A stretch of DNA of 28,003 bases, taken from IMG/VR virus record IMGVR_UViG_3300029068_000004; one strand, 5' to 3'. Source of the stretch: a virus (lineage: Duplodnaviria > Heunggongvirae > Uroviricota > Caudoviricetes). The translations under genes were made by a program, and so were the position numbers. Each line of letters starts with the position of its first letter. Within the stretch, counting starts at the first letter, position 1. Under the pieces are notes generated by a model, which worked only from the letters and a program-made list of their open reading frames with translations, did not search any database and was not told where the DNA came from. This document shows positions 1 through 28,003 of the stretch, piece after piece.

Positions 1-536
1 TTTGTTGATGCCGTTCCTGCGCTGGAAGACGCTGACTGAGCCGACGACGCGGCCTGTCCGGCTGACGTGCTGGCTGCGCGTGCGGAGTCCGCAGCATCAG
101 TCGCATGGGTTGCCGCCTCACGGGCTGATGTGCGGGCATCACTGGCTGACTTCTTCGCGGCTGCCGTGTTCTGTGCCACTGCGGACGCGTTACGCGCCAC
201 CTCTTCCACCATCAGTTCAAAGCGGCGCAGTGCCTCCGGACGGACATCATCCTCCGTCATGGCACCGAGAAAATCATTCAGCGTACCCGGTTGTGAGTCT
301 TCATACACGGTGATGGTCCCGGCATGCGATGGCGGGAAGCCTTCCACCAACAGAATAACGCTGTACTGACCGTACTCAACGTCCATGCTGTAACGCCCGG
401 CTTCATCCGGGTTTTCTGAGGCCACTGTGTTCACCACCACCGTGGTGCTGTTGCGCCTGGCCTTTAGCTGAATGGTGCAGTTTTGTATCGGCTTACCTGC
501 GCCATCTTTCAGTACACCTGAAATCCGTACTGCCAT
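1..536 (-). CDS. stf: Side tail fiber protein Stf, N-terminal part (gene runs past the window start)
   Basis: Minus-strand ATG at 536-534 preceded by a GGGGGGAA Shine-Dalgarno. Manual translation MAVRISGVLKDGAGKPIQNCTIQLKARRNSTTVVVNTVASENPDEAGRYSMDVEYGQYSV... matches the lambda Stf N-terminus as I remember it. Open to the window edge, so absent from the ORF track. Position after lom matches lambda gene order. Confidence 0.75.
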   Translation of the reverse strand, partial: MAVRISGVLKDGAGKPIQNCTIQLKARRNSTTVVVNTVASENPDEAGRYSMDVEYGQYSVILLVEGFPPSHAGTITVYEDSQPGTLNDFLGAMTEDDVRPEALRRFELMVEEVARNASAVAQNTAAAKKSASDARTSAREAATHATDAADSARAASTSAGQAASSAQSASSSAGTAST

Positions 537-546
537 ATTCCCCCCA

Positions 547-4723: not shown

Positions 4724-5365
4724 TCAACGACCAATCACCACAACCTGACCACCGTCCCCTTCGTCTGCCGTGCTGATCTCCTGAGATACCACCCGCGACC
4801 CCACACGCATTTCACCGTACAGAACGGGCAGGACATTGCCCTGGGCAACCATATTATCCAGTGAAGAAAAATAGGTGTTCTGTTTGCCGTTATCCGTTGT
4901 CTGTGTGTGGGGGGTTTTGGGTTTAGGGGCCAGCATCTGTGCAACACCGCCAAGCGTCATACTGGCACCGAGAGAAAACAGCAGATTACTCGCCATAATT
5001 CCTACCCCCGGCATCCATATAGCAACCGCCATAACAGCCGCCCCCAGCACAGCCTGGAACACACCGCCACTTTTGGCTCCTGCCAGACGCGGCACGATGT
5101 GGATCACAGCACCATTTGCCAGCGGTTCATTAAGACGGGCTGATAATTCCGTTTCACCTGTATCACGCCCGGCAATGCGTATCTGATACCAGCCGTCGCT
5201 CAGCTTCTGACGAAACGCCGGGATCTGCATGGCCAGCGCCCGGATGGCTTCGGCCCCCGTTTTCACACGCAGATCGATGCGGCGGCCAAATCGTTGTAAA
5301 TCCCCGTAAAGGCAGATGCGTGCCATGCCTGGTGACGCCAGAGGGAGTGTGTGCGTCGCTGCCAT
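4724..5365 (-). CDS. I: Tail tip assembly protein I (ubiquitin-like beta-grasp family)
   Basis: 213-aa ORF starting MAATHTLPLASPGMARICLYGDLQRFGRR, as lambda I from memory; ends about 60 nt upstream of J as in lambda. Confidence 0.9.
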   Translation of the reverse strand: MAATHTLPLASPGMARICLYGDLQRFGRRIDLRVKTGAEAIRALAMQIPAFRQKLSDGWYQIRIAGRDTGETELSARLNEPLANGAVIHIVPRLAGAKSGGVFQAVLGAAVMAVAIWMPGVGIMASNLLFSLGASMTLGGVAQMLAPKPKTPHTQTTDNGKQNTYFSSLDNMVAQGNVLPVLYGEMRVGSRVVSQEISTADEGDGGQVVVIGR

Positions 5366-5941
5366 TTGTCGGTATACCTCTCACGTTTGCTCAGTTGTTC
5401 AGGAATATGGTGCAGCAGCTCGCCGTCACCACAGTAAATGGCGGCATGATTCGGCACCGATGAACCAAAACAGCACAGCAGCACATCGCCCGGTTGTGCT
5501 GATGACAACGGCACCTGATACAGCCCTGTGGCCTCCAGATTATCCAGATAGAGATTCTGACCGTGACGCCACCAGTCATCCTCGCGATGAAAATCCGGCA
5601 TATCAATCCCCGCCAGATGGTAAGCATCCCGGAACAGCGTGTAACAGTCCGTCACCCCGTGCTCAAAGCGCCGCCCGGTGAGATACGGCACACAGCGGAA
5701 TTTATGAATCTCCCCACGGCAGACCACCGGGGTGGCTGTGGACCAGCGCCACAATCTCACCCTGCATCTCTGCCCGCAGCCAGTCCTCCGGCGACATCCG
5801 GAAATACGCCTCCGACTCACCGGAGATATTCACGCAGGGAAAATATCTTTCCCCTTCCGGCGTTCTCACCACGAAGCCGCACGACTCCGCTGGCGCACAT
5901 CGCCGGGCGTGCGCCAGAATCGCTGATTCTGTCTCTGTCAT
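5263..5941 (-). pseudogene. K: Tail tip assembly protein K (JAB/MPN + NlpC/P60) split across two reading frames, probable frameshift pseudogene
   Basis: The N-terminal part (5941-5702, 79 aa, MTETESAILAHARRCAPAESCGFVV...ALVHSHPGGLPW then stop) and the C-terminal part (frame of ORF 5263..5820, ...GEIHKFRCVP...NlpC/P60-like...) are both K-like but in different frames. The break falls inside the JAB motif HxHx7Sx2D, immediately after HSHPGGLPW. Confidence 0.7.
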
Positions 5942-20942: not shown

Positions 20943-21194
20943 TTAGTCCTGATTTTTATCCACCCTGAGTAGTTCGCGCAGAGCAAAGGCATCCCCTTTT
21001 CTGGCAAGCTTAAACAATGCCGCTCGTAACTCGGCTTCACCTTTCGCTCTGCCCTTACGGATGGCCGCATAAAAATCTGTCATTGCTTCCCGATTTTCTT
21101 TCAGTCGGTTCAGATCAACATCCAGAACGTCAGCGATTTGTTGTGCAGTCATCCGGCACGCTGCCAGAGACTCGACTTTCGAATACGGAATCAT
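20943..21194 (-). CDS. Small HTH DNA-binding protein (function unknown)
   Basis: 83-aa ORF with an HTH-like segment MTAQQIADVLDVDLNRLKEN; its stop lies 3 nt upstream of the small terminase ATG. Confidence 0.45.
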   Translation of the reverse strand: MIPYSKVESLAACRMTAQQIADVLDVDLNRLKENREAMTDFYAAIRKGRAKGEAELRAALFKLARKGDAFALRELLRVDKNQD

Positions 21195-22062
21195 TTGTCA
21201 CCCCTATTGATATGCAGGGTGTCTTCTTCCTGTATTTTTCGTGAAGGATTTTTACTGCAGCGTTGTTCCAGGTGACCTGATGGTGAATGCGTTTATGGCT
21301 GGCACCCATCAGTGAGATTTTTACGCACGACGGCGCATACATGACGGAGTAAAAACTTTTAACGTAGGTTCCGGAATCCAGATACAGCTCGGTCATTCCG
21401 CCGCTGTTTTTCTGCGTCTGTTTCTGCCCTAACTGGACAGCACCGATCGTCATAAACAATTCACCACAGCGACCGAGATTCGTGTACGTATTCACATCCT
21501 CGTTAATGCGCCCCATGAATGAGAACGGTCGATCAACCGAACAGATAAAGCTGTTCATTGCCTTGCGTTTCACCCACGAAGCATGGCCGCCATTGTCACC
21601 AAGAAAATCCCCTCCCTGCGACATAGCGATGGAAAGAGCAGGTATTGATTCGTAGTACGCCAGCATTTCAGAAAGGATCGCATCCAGTTTCCTTATCGGA
21701 AAATAGGCCTGGTCATAGTTGCGATCCACCCGAAACTGGAACTCGTGATAATCATCATCGAGCTGAATGAAGTATTTACACCCGACCAGTTTTGCCTGGT
21801 CGAAACAGGCATTACGGGCGTAAAAAATTGAGCGGCGGTCACAGAAATTATCGGCTTCGTCAAAACGACTGGCGATATCGGCTTTGGAAAACACCAGCAC
21901 CTGTTCACCAAATTCAGCCATGTACTGATGCCGTGTCTTATCTTCATCATCAACAACGATAAAAATTTTCCCGGTATAGCCAGCACGACGCAACGTCCGG
22001 TAAGTCAGAACTTTGTCCGGTCGCCCGTGAGTCAGAATAAAGGCGCAAAAATCATCACGCAT
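21130..22062 (-). CDS. Hypothetical enzyme with GT-A (family-2-like) glycosyltransferase sequence pattern
   Basis: 310-aa ORF with ATG at 22062. Sequence pattern CAFILTHGRP ... KIFIVVDDED ... YARNACFDQAKLVGCKYFIQLDDDY resembles the GT-A N-terminal strand plus ARN...G.Y...LD.DD (DXD) signature; no C-terminal transmembrane segment. Confidence 0.4.
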   Translation of the reverse strand: MRDDFCAFILTHGRPDKVLTYRTLRRAGYTGKIFIVVDDEDKTRHQYMAEFGEQVLVFSKADIASRFDEADNFCDRRSIFYARNACFDQAKLVGCKYFIQLDDDYHEFQFRVDRNYDQAYFPIRKLDAILSEMLAYYESIPALSIAMSQGGDFLGDNGGHASWVKRKAMNSFICSVDRPFSFMGRINEDVNTYTNLGRCGELFMTIGAVQLGQKQTQKNSGGMTELYLDSGTYVKSFYSVMYAPSCVKISLMGASHKRIHHQVTWNNAAVKILHEKYRKKTPCISIGVTNDSVFESRVSGSVPDDCTTNR

Positions 22063-22846
22063 ATTCCTCCTCCTCACCACCATGCATGATCTCCACCATG
22101 CGCTGCGTCATCCGGACAAATCCATTTTCAATAGCCTGCTGATAATCAATGATCACCAGCGCCGACTCCTCGAAAAAACACTGAATTTCAGCGGGGGCGT
22201 GAGCGTAATAGTCCGCAATTCTGCTGAAATTAAACACCGTGTGACGTTCTGCCGCACACAGGAGGAATTTCTCAATATCAGGCTCAAGGGACGCCGAACG
22301 TATCCGGCTGATCAGCTCCTGAGTTTTCGTATCGTCGTACAGTTCACTGATATCCGGTTTACCGCCCGACGGCTCATAAACAGGCGTATCAATTTTCGTC
22401 GTATACGGCTCCTCCTCATTTCCTGTACCGGGCAAAACATCCGTCAACAGTTCATCAATTTCTGTCGGGATGAAGCCTGTCAGGGAGACATCAAAATCAG
22501 CATTGATTAGGTCCGACAGCTCCATCCGCAACAGATCTTCATCCCAGCCAGCATTCATCGGCAGGCGATTATCTGCCAGGCGGTACGCCTTTTTCTGCTC
22601 ATCCGTCAGGCCAGACAGAACAATGACCGGAACAGAATCCATTTTGAGCATTTCAGCCGCCATAACACGACCGTGACCCGCAATAATTTCGCCCTTTTCG
22701 TCAATCAGCACCGGATTAGTCCAGCCGAATTGCTTAATACTTTCTACCAGTTGTGCCACCTGCTCAGGGCTGTGCGTCCTGGCGTTGTGCGCATACGGTG
22801 ACAATTCTTGTAATGGGCGATAGACTATCTTTAATTTCTCGCTCAT
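22055..22846 (-). CDS. ParB-like (ParB/Srx N-terminal domain) protein with a C-terminal domain of unknown function
   Basis: N-terminus ...LSPYAHNARTHSPEQVAQLVESIKQFGWTNPVLIDEKGEIIAGHGRVMAAEMLKMDSVPVIVL matches the ParB N-domain pattern including GHxR. Ends with the acidic tail GGEEEEYA, whose codons (GAGGAGGAGGAA) form the Shine-Dalgarno for the downstream gene. Confidence 0.7.
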   Translation of the reverse strand: MSEKLKIVYRPLQELSPYAHNARTHSPEQVAQLVESIKQFGWTNPVLIDEKGEIIAGHGRVMAAEMLKMDSVPVIVLSGLTDEQKKAYRLADNRLPMNAGWDEDLLRMELSDLINADFDVSLTGFIPTEIDELLTDVLPGTGNEEEPYTTKIDTPVYEPSGGKPDISELYDDTKTQELISRIRSASLEPDIEKFLLCAAERHTVFNFSRIADYYAHAPAEIQCFFEESALVIIDYQQAIENGFVRMTQRMVEIMHGGEEEEYA

Positions 22847-22983: not shown

Positions 22984-24441
22984 TTAGGAGCGCCAAAAAA
23001 AACCTGAAAACAATATAATAACAGGATAAATTTCAAGGCGACCAAGAATCATAGCTATGCACATTAAACATTTTGCAATGTCATTAAGCACTCCGAATGA
23101 CGATGCAGTAGCCCCAAAACCTAATCCCATATTATTAATACATGCAGCCACTGTTGCAAATGATGTAAGAAAATCATATCCCATACCATTTAACACCAGT
23201 ATAAAAAACACCGTGAAGAGAGTATAAAGAAAAAAGAAACTCCATACAGACCTCATTACACGATCTGTAACTATCTTCCCTCCTACATTTACACTCAACA
23301 ACGCTCTGGGATGAGAAAGCTGATTTATCTCGTGTTTGCTTTGTTTGAAAAGTATAAGAAATCGAAGTGACTTAATTCCACCACAAGTTGAACCTATACA
23401 TCCCCCAAAGAAACTTGACAACAGCAAAAACACTATCGTGTGCGTGGGCCAACTTGCATAATCCTGCGTAGCTAAACCATTATCAGTGAGCATGGAGCTG
23501 GCAAGAAAAAACGAATGAATAAAACTTCCATGCAAGTCATACATACCTATATGCCAGACCTGGAAAGAGGTAACAATGATCACCCCTAAGGCTATTAACA
23601 GAAAGAAACGAAGTTCAATATCTCTGATTAAAGGTTTTATCGTTTTCCTGCTAATAACAATATACCAAAGAGTGAAGTTGAAAGCCGATAGCAGGGAAAA
23701 AGAACCAGCCACCAGCTCAACCAAATAGTTATTAAAATATCCGATACTCTCGCTATGAGTTGAGAAACCACCAAGCGAAACTGTGGAAATCCCGTGACAA
23801 ATAGCATCAAACAAAGGCATTCCTGCAAGTCTATAACAGACAATACAAGCAATACCTAATAAAGAATAAGTTATCCACAGTGTCCGTGACGTATCGGCCA
23901 GGCGGGGAGTGAGTTTGTCATCCTTAAATGGCCCCGGCATTTCTGACTGATAAAGCTTTGCACCACCAATACCCAATAATGGCAATACAGCAACCGCCAG
24001 AACAATAACTCCTAAACCACCTATAAAATTTAACTGTGACCGATAGTACAAATATGCCCGAGGTAATGAACTAACATCATCAATTACAGTTGCTCCTGTT
24101 GTTGTTATTCCAGAAACCCCTTCAAACAGAGCATCAATGAACGTTAAATTAAGTTCTGAGTCAATCCATAAAGGGAATGCACTAATAACAGAAAACAAAA
24201 TCCAAAACATTACAATTATAATAAACCCATCACGGGTACGTAATTGAATGCCAGATTTCTTAGTTGTATACCACGCTCCGCCACCAATGCAAAAAAATAT
24301 AACGAAAGTTATAAAGAAAACAAACAGGCTTTTTTCTTTATAAAACAATGCTACAACCATTGGTGGCAACATTGAAAGACTATAGAGCCAAACCAGGAAC
24401 CCACACATATGAGTAACAACTCTTACATGAGATGTATTCAT
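22984..24441 (-). CDS. trkG: TrkH/TrkG-family potassium uptake protein (moron)
   Basis: Polytopic membrane protein; from ATG 24441 it reads MNTSHVRVVTHMCGFLVWLYSL..., as E. coli Rac-prophage TrkG (485 aa) from memory. A TTG at 24459 with an AAGGTGG Shine-Dalgarno is an alternative start. Visibly AT-rich versus neighbours. Confidence 0.9.
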   Translation of the reverse strand: MNTSHVRVVTHMCGFLVWLYSLSMLPPMVVALFYKEKSLFVFFITFVIFFCIGGGAWYTTKKSGIQLRTRDGFIIIVMFWILFSVISAFPLWIDSELNLTFIDALFEGVSGITTTGATVIDDVSSLPRAYLYYRSQLNFIGGLGVIVLAVAVLPLLGIGGAKLYQSEMPGPFKDDKLTPRLADTSRTLWITYSLLGIACIVCYRLAGMPLFDAICHGISTVSLGGFSTHSESIGYFNNYLVELVAGSFSLLSAFNFTLWYIVISRKTIKPLIRDIELRFFLLIALGVIIVTSFQVWHIGMYDLHGSFIHSFFLASSMLTDNGLATQDYASWPTHTIVFLLLSSFFGGCIGSTCGGIKSLRFLILFKQSKHEINQLSHPRALLSVNVGGKIVTDRVMRSVWSFFFLYTLFTVFFILVLNGMGYDFLTSFATVAACINNMGLGFGATASSFGVLNDIAKCLMCIAMILGRLEIYPVIILFSGFFWRS

Positions 24442-24578
24442 ATCTAAATATTCTTTCAATTATAACCACCTTGCTGCAATATTATGATTATACTGTATAA
24501 AATTTAACTCCTCTTAGATCTTACTTCACTGTTCCTTATGAAACAATCATCAAAATGAATCATATTGTAGTTAAGATT

Positions 24579-25984: not shown

Positions 25985-26078
25985 CAGATGGAGTGCCAGA
26001 TTAAGCTTCTGGCGGTATATACTCGTGTTTGATATCGTTAAATCGCCAAAAGTAACAATTCAAACAAAGAGGATTTTT

Positions 26079-26240
26079 ATGTCTGAAAAAAACAAGCCAC
26101 AAGATGAAAATAAACCTCAGCAACCCGTGGCACCAAAACCAACTCCAACACAAAGTACTACAGACTTTGCTACACGTCGTGTTTTTGTTGGAGATTCTGC
26201 CGACTCAGTCATTGAACATATAAAAAAACAGCCGAGATAA
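26079..26240 (+). CDS. Small hypothetical protein (53 aa), convergent with and overlapping the 3' end of the membrane-protein gene
   Basis: Plus-strand ATG at 26079 with an AAGAGGA Shine-Dalgarno 5 nt upstream; MSEKNKPQDENKPQQPVAPKPTPTQSTTDFATRRVFVGDSADSVIEHIKKQPR; hydrophilic and proline-rich. Confidence 0.35.
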   Translation: MSEKNKPQDENKPQQPVAPKPTPTQSTTDFATRRVFVGDSADSVIEHIKKQPR

Positions 26241-26778
26241 ACATCGCCGCTACCGGAGCAAGGATGGTATACATCCTTGCTTTATCGAGACTCGTGCGGA
26301 TTTTCTCATTTTCCAACAGTAACTCTCTTGCTGTATCACTCAAGTCAACAAGGCGATACCTTCGTATAAGCGGCAATAACTTATCAGGTCCTAAATATCC
26401 TGCATCAGCGAATATTTTAAAGCTCGAGGGCTCCATATCCTTATATTTTTCATGATATAGATGATCAGGAGGGGCATTGATCAGGCCCCTAACCTTCACA
26501 GATAAACCAGTACATATCAAGTAAATGGCGCACCATGTCCATAGTAATGTAAATGTGGTAATTCCGGCGGTGAGAAAATCGAAATTAGTTTTCTGTGTCA
26601 GCAATAAAAAAGATGAACCAATTCCAACAATCTGAATGTTCAGAAGTTTGTATCCATTCTCAACATTGGTTTTGTTAGAAAGATGAATCTCTCGTATCGT
26701 CTCTTCCCCTTGTTTTTCAAGATAATCGACGAGCTCATCATCTACTCCTAAAAAATAATCTTTAGGTAGTTCTCTCAT
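26209..26778 (-). CDS. Hypothetical membrane protein (189 aa, about three predicted transmembrane segments), moron
   Basis: ATG at 26778 with a GGAGGTG Shine-Dalgarno; hydrophobic segments IQIVGIGSSFLLL, AGITTFTLLWTWCAIYLICTGL and YTILAPVAAMFISAVFLYV; AT-rich; I recognise no family. Confidence 0.6.
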   Translation of the reverse strand: MRELPKDYFLGVDDELVDYLEKQGEETIREIHLSNKTNVENGYKLLNIQIVGIGSSFLLLTQKTNFDFLTAGITTFTLLWTWCAIYLICTGLSVKVRGLINAPPDHLYHEKYKDMEPSSFKIFADAGYLGPDKLLPLIRRYRLVDLSDTARELLLENEKIRTSLDKARMYTILAPVAAMFISAVFLYVQ

Positions 26779-26806
26779 CTCACCTCCACATCCTGTACTG
26801 AAAACA

Positions 26807-26815
26807 ATTTTACCA
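26807..26815 (-). promoter_or_regulatory. Candidate extended -10 promoter (TGGTAAAAT) for the moron gene
   Basis: Minus strand TGGTAAAAT about 30 nt upstream of the ATG at 26778; no good -35, as is usual for extended -10 promoters. Confidence 0.3.
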
Positions 26816-26887
26816 GAATGTCTCGATTCTAGGTATTCCGCCAGGAATCTCGTTCCAGAAATGAAACATCAGGTTCGCCAGTACCAG

Positions 26888-26916
26888 AAACAACAAAACC
26901 CGCTCAATGGCGGGTT
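26888..26916 (-). terminator. tR'-like intrinsic terminator downstream of the late promoter
   Basis: Minus strand AACCCGC-CAUUGA-GCGGGUU followed by UUGUUGUUU, about 60-80 nt downstream of the PR'-like promoter. Confidence 0.5.
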
Positions 26917-26974
26917 CTGGTAAAGTTCATGCGCTTGGTTCGCCTCGCGATACAGCTTTGCGAAGCATACCGGA

Positions 26975-27003
26975 ATTGAAGCAGTTTATGCGTAAAAAAT
27001 CAA
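26975..27003 (-). promoter_or_regulatory. PR'-like late promoter candidate immediately downstream of Q
   Basis: Minus strand TTGATT - 17 nt - TTCAAT; the -35 overlaps the Q stop codon, the expected position of a lambdoid late promoter. Confidence 0.4.
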
Positions 27004-27542
27004 GCTATTTTTTGAGCAAATGATTCTCGCATGGGAATATATAGGGCATACTCAGCAACAGCCAACCAATTAGCAATTCGCTTTTCGCATGTGCTAAAAC
27101 ACCACTCAGGATGTGCATCATTTAGCAATTCAGCCATTTTGCGCTTAGTCATCCCCCGTCCTTCATACCGTTGCCGGAGGACACTAATCAATCCAGGATG
27201 CTCTGCCAGCACCTCACTTATGACTCTATCAATACATAACGCCTCTGCATCAGTACAATGCGCCAGCCAGGTCTTTTGCTTGCCATTGATCATCTCTCGC
27301 AAAAACGCTTCCAGCTCAGGTTTCTCTATTCCCGCTTTTTTCATCCTGCGCAGGGCTTCATTGACGGCTGTTTTCGTCAATTTTTTGGATGCCAGCAACT
27401 GGTTAAACATATTTCCCGTCTTACCGCCGCCAATATACGACCAGCGCCCCCACATGCGCAGTTTTCCCTGAATCCAGACACTTTCCAGCGTGGTGAGACG
27501 AAGGTGTTCCCCGCTTTTGCCTGTATTTGTTGGGTAAATCAT
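27000..27542 (-). CDS. Putative late antiterminator Q-like protein
   Basis: 180 aa from ATG 27542 (overlaps the upstream stop as ATGA); sits directly upstream of the PR'-like promoter/terminator and lysis genes; contains a Cys pair cluster (C...C...C..C). Assigned mainly by synteny. Confidence 0.5.
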   Translation of the reverse strand: MIYPTNTGKSGEHLRLTTLESVWIQGKLRMWGRWSYIGGGKTGNMFNQLLASKKLTKTAVNEALRRMKKAGIEKPELEAFLREMINGKQKTWLAHCTDAEALCIDRVISEVLAEHPGLISVLRQRYEGRGMTKRKMAELLNDAHPEWCFSTCEKRIANWLAVAEYALYIPMRESFAQKIA

Positions 27543-27829
27543 AAATAACCTTCCTTTCTCCAGATTTCTTGTGTGCGAAAAACACCTTCTGCATGCATCA
27601 GGCGTAATTCTTCTTTGGTGTAATCGCTGGTTTTTACCCGCCCGTCGATTAAATCGTGGCATGAGCTACAGGCAATCGCTGCCTGCATATCGTGTGGTTT
27701 TGTCGCTGTTCCGCACGTCCCCGACAGCCTGTAATGCGCCAGCACAGATGTTTCGGGATTGTGATTGCAGTAGCCAGGAATTCTGACGGTGCACATCTGC
27801 CCCCGCGCCGCTTTACGTAAATCCACCAT
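27539..27829 (-). CDS. YbcO-like (DUF1364) putative zinc-binding nuclease, nin-region protein
   Basis: 96 aa MVDLRKAARGQMCTVRIPGYCNHNPETSVLAHYRLSGTCGTATKPHDMQAAIACSSCHDLIDG... with a Cys/His-rich pattern as I recall for DLP12 YbcO-family proteins. Confidence 0.5.
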   Translation of the reverse strand: MVDLRKAARGQMCTVRIPGYCNHNPETSVLAHYRLSGTCGTATKPHDMQAAIACSSCHDLIDGRVKTSDYTKEELRLMHAEGVFRTQEIWRKEGYL

Positions 27830-27831
27830 TA

Positions 27832-27904
27832 CGCAAACTCCAGTAACTGTGCGGCCACATTTTCGACTTCCTCCGGAGAGGAAAATTTACGGAACAGGAT
27901 CCAG
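27832..27904 (-). pseudogene. 3' remnant of a nin-region gene truncated by the IS insertion
   Basis: Minus-strand frame open from the IS boundary to a TAA that overlaps the ybcO-like start (TAATG); it encodes ...LFRKFSSPEEVENVAAQLLEFA with no start codon inside the prophage-derived part. Confidence 0.35.
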
Positions 27905-28003
27905 TGATCTTACCCAGCAATAGTGGACACGCGGCTAAGTGAGTAAACTCTCAGTCAGAGGTGACTCACATGACAAAAACAGTATCAACCAGTAAAAAAC
28001 CCC
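27905..28003 (+). mobile_element. Left end of an IS3-family insertion sequence (terminal inverted repeat plus start of orfA), continuing beyond the window
   Basis: Sequence TGATCTTACCCAGCAATAGTGGACACGCGGCTAAGTGAG... then GAGGTGA Shine-Dalgarno and ATG at 27970 encoding MTKTVSTSKKP..., which I recognise as the IS3 left end / OrfA N-terminus. Confidence 0.6.

What the first reader, a model, noticed from the sequence alone, without database searches (positions are those of the whole stretch)
27832..28003. IS3-family element inserted at the early/late boundary, truncating a nin-region gene just upstream of the ybcO-like and Q genes
The window ends with what I recognise as an IS3 left inverted repeat and the start of its orfA (MTKTVSTSKKP...). 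On the prophage side, a minus-strand frame is open from the IS junction to a stop overlapping the ybcO-like start but has no start codon, so it is the 3' end of a gene cut by the insertion. The IS separates the ybcO-Q operon from upstream early promoters, which could abolish or alter Q expression and late gene induction. Together with the K frameshift this points to a decaying prophage whose morons may still be expressed from their own promoters.
Basis: partly seen in the sequence, partly recalled or inferred. Interest (0 to 1): 0.5.

Follow-up and report, generated by a model that had tools for sequence, protein, structure and literature searches.

The report
IS3 insertion splitting a prophage gene
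The window ends in a copy of the common E. coli jumping gene IS3 that has landed inside a small gene just upstream of the late-gene switch (Q) of a Rac-type prophage; this is an ordinary step in prophage decay, not a new kind of element.

Summary
Window 27905-28003 matches the left end of IS3 at 99 of 99 bases (inverted repeat, then the orfA start MTKTVSTSKKP at 27970).

The prophage side up to 27904 is 100% identical to many complete E. coli genomes. There a 199-aa DUF1367 (NinB/Orf-like) gene runs uninterrupted into ybcO and a Q-like antiterminator gene. The 24-codon minus-strand remnant (27832-27903) is exactly that gene's C-terminus.

The other IS end lies outside the window, so I predicted the protein a simple insertion with a 3-bp duplication would make: DUF1367 residues 1-175 plus CDPTHVIWTQA. 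That exact 186-aa protein is in public data on 14 human-gut metagenome contigs. They read DUF1367...CTG followed by the IS3 right end. This shows the CAG/CTG target duplication and a Rac-type early region on the far side.

The exact junction is absent from 5,426 complete E. coli genomes, but related prophages carry IS3 at three other sites.

The effect on Q expression is plausible but only inferred: there is no promoter-like site between the IS and ybcO-Q, and the published outward promoter of IS3 is at its other end.

Interest is low.

The parts
27905..28003 (+). Left end of IS3. It holds the imperfect terminal inverted repeat (about 27905-27943), a leader, and the first 11 codons of orfA (ATG at 27970). 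The element runs off the end of the window.
   Evidence: 99/99 identity to the left end of a 1258-bp IS3 in Z142-6. IRL/IRR comparison. Sequence.
27902..27904 (.). Target-site duplication CAG, left copy.
   Evidence: Left junction is GGATC|CAG|TGATCTTACCC in the window. Right junction is GGGTAGGATCA|CAG|TTCCACAGC in L015, L016 and L017. Intact sequence is GGATCCAGTTCCACAGC in KFu019.
27829..27903 (-). C-terminal 24 codons plus stop of the interrupted DUF1367 (NinB/Orf-like, ybcN-type) gene. The stop TAA overlaps the ybcO start as TAATG.
   Evidence: Translation. Identical to residues 176-199 of the intact 199-aa protein found in 10 fetched loci. The intact protein matches PF07105 over 1-198 of 198 positions, E 6e-98, and phrog_319.
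27539..27829 (-). ybcO-like gene (96 aa, putative nuclease), first intact gene after the IS.
   Evidence: PF07102 E 2e-45. phrog_131 'HNH endonuclease'. Annotated as DUF1364 in relatives.
27000..27542 (-). Q-like late antiterminator gene (180 aa). Its start overlaps the ybcO stop as ATGA.
   Evidence: PF06576 DUF1133 E 3e-109. PF06530 Phage_antitermQ 28 bits against a cutoff of 26. phrog_753 'anti-termination protein Q-like' E 1e-79.
27036..27065 (-). Promoter-like site (TTGGCT-18-TATATT) in the 3' end of Q, a candidate late promoter (pR'-like). It is the only minus-strand promoter-like site between 26700 and 28003.
   Evidence: This is a consensus match only.
26894..26919 (-). Intrinsic-terminator-like hairpin with a T run downstream of the candidate late promoter (tR'-like).
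   Evidence: 10-pair stem, 6 G-C pairs, tail TTGTTTCTGG.

Best explanation
A copy of IS3 (1258 bp in every complete copy examined) transposed into the Asn175 codon region of the 199-aa DUF1367 (NinB/Orf-like) gene of a Rac-type, trkG-carrying lambdoid prophage of E. coli, duplicating the 3-bp target CAG.

Shown:
- The insertion is a simple one. On the window side it leaves a 24-codon remnant with no ATG start, followed by ybcO and the Q-like antiterminator gene.
- On the far side it creates a 186-aa fusion ORF (DUF1367 1-175 + CDPTHVIWTQA) and leaves the Rac-type early region in place (recE, kilR, sieB, a 158-aa ORF at the racR position, ydaS/ydaT and replication genes).
- The IS transposase reads opposite to the phage genes, and the IS left end faces ybcO-Q.

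Inferred:
- DUF1367, ybcO and Q form one tightly packed operon (overlaps TAATG and ATGA).
- The best promoter-like site lies about 60 nt upstream of DUF1367, which is now on the other side of the IS.
- Transcripts must therefore cross about 1.2 kb of untranslated antisense IS3 after the fusion ORF stops 33 nt into the element. That is the classical setting for Rho-dependent polarity.
- The IS3 left end supplies no recognisable outward promoter. Q output, and with it read-through of the terminator after the late promoter into lysis and morphogenesis genes, is therefore expected to fall.
- Together with the 65-bp deletion in tail gene K, this is a decaying prophage.
For: - IS3 identity is 99/99.
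- The prophage flank 27305-27904 is 100% identical to many complete genomes with an uninterrupted DUF1367-ybcO-Q.
- A predictive test passed. The fusion protein expected from a simple insertion with a 3-bp duplication is present exactly in public data, on 14 contigs from at least 3 ENA metagenome assemblies.
- The ends of those contigs read ...GTGGAACTG|TGATCCTACCCACGTAATATGG. The three fetched contigs are 100% identical to each other and 99.8% identical to the intact relative KFu019.
- The junction triplet is CAG on both sides.
- Three other IS3 insertion sites in related prophages are all 1258 bp with 3-bp duplications.
- There is no minus-strand promoter-like site between the IS and ybcO-Q and none on the antisense strand of IS3.
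- A promoter-like TTTACA-16-TATACT lies upstream of DUF1367.
- The published outward promoter of IS3 (P3R) is at the right end (PMC8860574, PMC12095673 section 12). The 150-bp IS3 end fragments were chosen for that study because they had no detectable promoter activity (PMC12095673 section 6).
- K deletion.
Against: - The window stops 99 nt into the IS. The right junction comes from other assemblies, so the link to this particular genome is an inference from the identical target site and complementary duplication.
- The window's own proteins that were tried (J, the K fragment, two junction ORFs) are not on record in that collection.
- No intrinsic-terminator-like site was found on the antisense strand of IS3, so any block to Q transcription would rest on Rho and could be partial.
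- The promoter scans are consensus matches, no more frequent than in shuffled sequence.
- It is not known how Q is normally transcribed in Rac-type phages.
Confidence: 0.9

Rival explanations
1. The insertion is real and simple but has no functional effect. Either Q is still transcribed by read-through across the IS, or the prophage was already dead (K deletion) and the IS changes nothing that matters.
For: No intrinsic-terminator-like site on the antisense strand of IS3. ybcO keeps its own GGAG Shine-Dalgarno sequence 8 nt before the ATG (sequence). K is already broken by a 65-bp deletion.
Against: The fusion ORF stops 33 nt into the IS, which leaves about 1.2 kb untranslated. From established knowledge, IS elements were first recognised as strongly polar insertions. 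No promoter-like site lies between the IS and Q.
Confidence: 0.3
2. In the genome the window comes from, this IS3 copy is the endpoint of an IS3-mediated deletion or inversion, so the rest of DUF1367 and the early region are missing or elsewhere.
For: The window ends inside the IS, so its own right side is unseen. IS3 is multicopy in E. coli (a median of 4 places per genome match the query that included the IS end).
Against: The complementary right junction at the same base, with the matching CAG duplication, exists on 14 contigs. All other IS3 copies in related prophages are simple insertions.
Confidence: 0.06
3. The junction is an assembly artefact, a chimeric contig end joining prophage sequence to a repeat.
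For: The window looks like a whole short-read contig. It starts inside the repeated stf tail-fibre gene and ends 99 nt into a repeat.
Against: The break falls exactly at the first base of the IS3 terminal repeat. The reciprocal junction with the expected 3-bp duplication exists independently in several assemblies. A chimera would not respect the IS terminus.
Confidence: 0.02

Closest known systems
IS3 of Escherichia coli (type element of the IS3 family; insE/insF copies in K-12)
   Same: The 99 bases present are identical to IS3, including the terminal repeat and the orfA start. The right end seen on the partner contigs is 127/127 identical to the IS3 copy in KFu019. There is a 3-bp target duplication.
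   Different: Nothing in the element itself differs. Only the insertion site is particular: this junction is absent from 5,426 complete E. coli genomes.
Rac prophage of E. coli K-12 and its fuller relatives (trkG-carrying lambdoid prophages)
   Same: The late region carries trkG between the lysis genes and the terminase. The partner contig carries recE, kilR, sieB, ydaS and ydaT.
   Different: From my own knowledge, K-12 Rac lacks the head, tail and Q modules. This prophage keeps a nearly complete late region, with a broken K and this IS3.
ybcN-ninE-ybcO-rusA-quuD region of prophage DLP12 (nin region upstream of Q)
   Same: Same gene families in the same order: DUF1367, then YbcO, then a Q-type antiterminator. 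DLP12 also carries an IS3 copy. The DLP12 details are from my own knowledge.
   Different: Here the three genes abut directly, with no ninE or rusA between them, and the Q is of the DUF1133 type. In DLP12 the IS3 sits elsewhere.
Classical polar IS insertions in operons (gal, lac)
   Same: An IS inside a promoter-proximal gene of an operon, with translation stopping soon after entry into the IS. This is expected to reduce expression of the distal genes.
   Different: Polarity has not been measured here.

Membership tests
IS3 (IS3 family, IS3 group) | Terminal inverted repeat beginning TG, with sequence identity to the IS3 left end | tested here: met
   Window 27905-28003 is 99/99 identical to the IS3 left end in L002. 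IRL and IRR align over about 39 bp.
IS3 (IS3 family, IS3 group) | Matching right inverted repeat at the other side of the same target | tested here: met
   Not in the window. It is found on L015, L016 and L017, where 127 nt of the IS3 right end abut DUF1367 at the same target.
IS3 (IS3 family, IS3 group) | 3-bp target-site duplication | tested here: met
   CAG flanks both junctions and occurs once in the intact allele.
IS3 (IS3 family, IS3 group) | orfA (helix-turn-helix) and orfB (DDE/rve) joined by a programmed -1 frameshift | not testable with these tools
   Only 11 codons of orfA lie in the window, and they are identical to IS3 orfA. Full copies in relatives are annotated with the frameshift.
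DUF1367 (PF07105) / PHROG 319 'NinB/Orf' | The remnant is part of a protein that matches the family profile end to end | tested here: met
   The intact 199-aa protein matches 1-198 of 198 profile positions, E 6e-98, and phrog_319 at E 1e-69. The remnant equals its residues 176-199.
Lambdoid Q antitermination module | Q-family protein encoded just upstream of the late promoter | tested here: met
   PF06576 E 3e-109. PF06530 28 bits against a cutoff of 26. phrog_753 E 1e-79.
Lambdoid Q antitermination module | Late promoter followed by a terminator that Q overrides | tested here: inconclusive
   A promoter-like site at 27065..27036 and a terminator-like hairpin at 26919..26894 are present on the right strand, but these are consensus matches only. 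Q activity cannot be tested.

The most novel reading that the evidence does not exclude
The insertion could be one of several independent IS hits around the Q-lysis switch of Rac-type prophages. IS3 sits at four different sites, and IS1 copies lie near Q in other strains. Together these could reflect selection to silence lysis while keeping trkG and the moron (accessory) genes, that is, recurrent domestication by IS rather than random decay.
Probability: 0.1. Interest if true: 0.3.

Novelty: already known. Interest (0 to 1): 0.08.

Why it matters
It matters little beyond annotation. The result explains why the contig ends where it does. It identifies a pseudogene (DUF1367 split into a 186-aa fusion and a 24-codon tail). 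It also marks this Rac-type prophage as probably unable to switch on late genes normally, and in any case unable to build tails because of the K deletion. The insertion allele could serve as a lineage marker for a gut E. coli clone, since it appears in several metagenome assemblies but in none of 5,426 complete genomes.

Tried and rejected
- Exact left-junction searches found nothing in GTDB representative genomes, JGI metagenome contigs or IMG/VR viral contigs. A right-junction search in JGI metagenome contigs also found nothing.
- No complete E. coli genome has the junction. The two full-coverage hits were two-piece matches: in Z142-6 the IS3 sits 500 bp further into DUF1367, and FORC_082 was not inspected. 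The CH423-type hits have the IS3 in trkG.
- Looking up the YbcO protein returned only uninterrupted neighbourhoods.
- Look-ups of junction-spanning ORFs, the truncated K product and J to trace the source sample all returned 'not on record'.
- Rfam found nothing credible in 26000-28003.
- NCBIfam has no model for the three phage proteins.
- I looked for an outward promoter formed by the IS3 left end and the flank. By eye and by scan none is convincing.
- No second IS3 end occurs in the window.
- Charlier et al. 1982 could not be read and is cited only through papers that cite it.

Full report
**What is in the sequence**

The last 99 bases of the window (27905-28003) begin TGATCTTACCCAGCAATAGTGG and carry an ATG at 27970 that opens MTKTVSTSKKP. 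Aligned with a complete 1258-bp IS3 copy from E. coli Z142-6, all 99 bases are identical, and identity begins exactly at the first base of the terminal repeat. The left and right ends of that copy form the expected imperfect inverted repeat of about 39 bp. The element is therefore IS3 itself. No other IS3 end occurs in the window.

On the minus strand, the frame that ends in TAA at 27831-27829 reads WILFRKFSSPEEVENVAAQLLEFA*. It has no ATG, and upstream it meets a stop inside the IS. Its TAA overlaps the ATG of the next gene as TAATG.

**What was interrupted**

A megablast of 27305-28003 against 5,426 complete E. coli genomes gave 1,319 genomes covering at least 80% of the query. Many were 100% identical over 27305-27905, where identity stops.

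In those genomes the sequence continues as a 199-aa gene annotated 'DUF1367 family protein', followed directly by DUF1364 (ybcO) and DUF1133 genes. The family matches are:

| Protein | Pfam | PHROGs |
|---|---|---|
| Intact 199-aa protein | PF07105, end to end, E 6e-98 | phrog_319, 'NinB/Orf homologous recombination mediator' |
| 96-aa gene, 27539-27829 | PF07102 (YbcO) | phrog_131, 'HNH endonuclease' |
| 180-aa gene, 27000-27542 | PF06576 (DUF1133); PF06530 Phage_antitermQ 28 bits, cutoff 26 | phrog_753, 'anti-termination protein Q-like' |

The remnant equals residues 176-199 of the intact 199-aa protein in ten fetched loci.

**The other end of the IS**

The window stops inside the element. 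The exact left junction is absent from the complete genomes, GTDB representative genomes, JGI metagenome contigs and IMG/VR.

I therefore made a prediction. If this is a simple IS3 insertion with the usual 3-bp duplication (CAG on the window's plus strand), the upstream part of DUF1367 should read through codon 175. It should then continue into the IS3 right end as CDPTHVIWTQA and stop, giving a 186-aa protein.

An exact-sequence look-up among about 15 billion proteins found that protein. It is encoded on 14 contigs, and the three places shown come from three different ENA human-gut metagenome assemblies. The three fetched contigs (L015, L016, L017) are 100% identical to each other and 99.8% identical to the uninterrupted relative KFu019.

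Each contig ends inside IS3, reading ...GTGCTGTGGAACTG|TGATCCTACCCACGTAATATGG. In window orientation the three states are (for the intact allele):
- left junction: GGATC|CAG|TGATCTTACCC
- right junction: GGGTAGGATCA|CAG|TTCCACAGC
- intact allele: GGATCCAGTTCCACAGC

This is the signature of one simple transposition event.

The far side carries a Rac-type early region: exonuclease VIII (recE), kilR, sieB, a 158-aa ORF at the racR position, ydaS/ydaT, replication genes, two opposite-strand accessory genes, and then the truncated DUF1367.

The link to the window's own genome is inferential, because the two halves come from different assemblies. An identical target base and complementary duplications arising independently is very unlikely. 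Related prophages carry IS3 at three other sites (between the 189-aa gene downstream of Q and the holin; at the DUF1367 N-terminus; in trkG). All of these are 1258 bp with 3-bp duplications.

**Why the window ends here**

The partner contigs end 127 nt (a MEGAHIT k127 contig) and 100 nt into IS3, and the window ends 99 nt into it. The window begins inside the side tail-fibre gene stf, which is another repeated sequence. Its odd length, 28,003 bases, fits a whole short-read contig bounded by repeats. This is an inference.

**Likely consequence**

DUF1367, ybcO and Q overlap by TAATG and ATGA, which indicates a single operon.

Between the IS and Q there is no minus-strand promoter-like site. The only one in 26700-28003 lies at 27065..27036, inside the 3' end of Q. 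It is followed by a strong terminator-like hairpin at 26919..26894, the arrangement expected of a late promoter and its Q-overridden terminator.

In the intact allele and in L015, the best promoter-like site near the operon (TTTACA-16-TATACT, 10 of 12) lies about 60 nt upstream of the DUF1367 ATG. It is now on the far side of the IS.

The IS is oriented against phage transcription, with its left end facing ybcO-Q. The outward promoter described for IS3 (P3R, Charlier et al. 1982) is at the right end (PMC8860574; PMC12095673 section 12). The terminal 150-bp IS3 fragments were chosen for a reporter study because they showed no detectable promoter activity (PMC12095673 section 6).

No promoter-like or terminator-like site was found on the antisense strand of IS3. 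The expected effect is therefore Rho-dependent polarity. The fusion ORF stops 33 nt into the IS and leaves about 1.2 kb untranslated. Loss of translational coupling into ybcO would add to this. The effect is inferred and may be partial. All promoter hits are consensus matches at frequencies no higher than in shuffled sequence.

**Prophage state**

The window is the late region of a Rac-type lambdoid prophage. It runs Lom, J, I, K, L, M, the tape-measure protein, then the tail and head genes, terminase, trkG, Rz, endolysin, holin, a 189-aa gene, Q, ybcO.

Tail gene K carries a 65-bp deletion near 5714 relative to strain MINF_8D. Two independent lesions support the picture of a decaying prophage.

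**Comparison with known systems, and verdict**

The element is IS3. The host element is a Rac-type prophage with a nin-Q arrangement like ybcN-ybcO-quuD of DLP12. The expected effect is classical IS polarity. Nothing departs from known kinds. Only the insertion site is new relative to the complete-genome set, and the allele already exists in public metagenome assemblies. The finding is correct and ordinary.

Noticed in passing
window 5263-5941 (minus strand), deletion near 5714: Tail gene K carries a 65-bp deletion relative to strain MINF_8D. This splits it into a 79-aa JAB-domain ORF (5702-5941) and a 185-aa NlpC/P60 ORF (5263-5820).
   Followed up: yes
window 21130-22083 and 22055-22846 (minus strand): A 317-aa ORF matches PF20691, TET-associated glycosyltransferase (E 1.5e-34). 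It overlaps a 263-aa ORF with a ParB N-terminal domain. In relatives the ParB-like gene (ynaK) is annotated as a truncated pseudogene. This could be the remains of a DNA-modification module and was not examined further.
   Followed up: no
window 22984-24459 (minus strand): The potassium transporter gene trkG sits between the lysis cassette and the terminase genes, which marks this as a Rac-type prophage with a nearly complete late region.
   Followed up: partly
window 27036-27065 and 26894-26919 (minus strand): A promoter-like site in the 3' end of Q is followed about 115 nt later by a strong terminator-like hairpin. This is the layout of a Q-dependent late promoter and terminator. The 189-aa gene of unknown function (26209-26778, phrog_11870, no Pfam match) lies just after the terminator.
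   Followed up: partly
window 27890-27913 region; L001 4584-4607: In the intact allele the IS3 target CAG lies in the loop of a small hairpin (GGAAC-N8-GTTCC) that contains a GGATCC palindrome. This is probably chance.
   Followed up: no
L001 (about 1704-2961) and L007 5564-6821; L002 5099-6356; L003 958-2215; IS1 genes at L005 537-1234, L008 5152-5849, L010 584-1236: Related Rac-type prophages in other strains carry IS3 at three other sites (target duplications ACC, GTT, GAC) and IS1 copies near Q or the early region. IS hits in this part of the prophage are recurrent.
   Followed up: partly
window 1-540 and 27905-28003: The window starts inside the stf side tail-fibre gene and ends 99 nt into IS3, so both ends lie in repeated sequences. 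The 28,003-base window is probably an entire short-read contig.
   Followed up: partly
L015 7412-9187: Between the early replication genes and DUF1367, relatives carry opposite-strand cargo that varies between strains: a 269-aa protein with no Pfam hit plus a TehB-like gene; SIR2 plus NTP pyrophosphatase plus amidohydrolase; or Hok/Gef plus an ATP-dependent nuclease plus a cytosine methyltransferase. This looks like a variable accessory or defence-gene slot.
   Followed up: no
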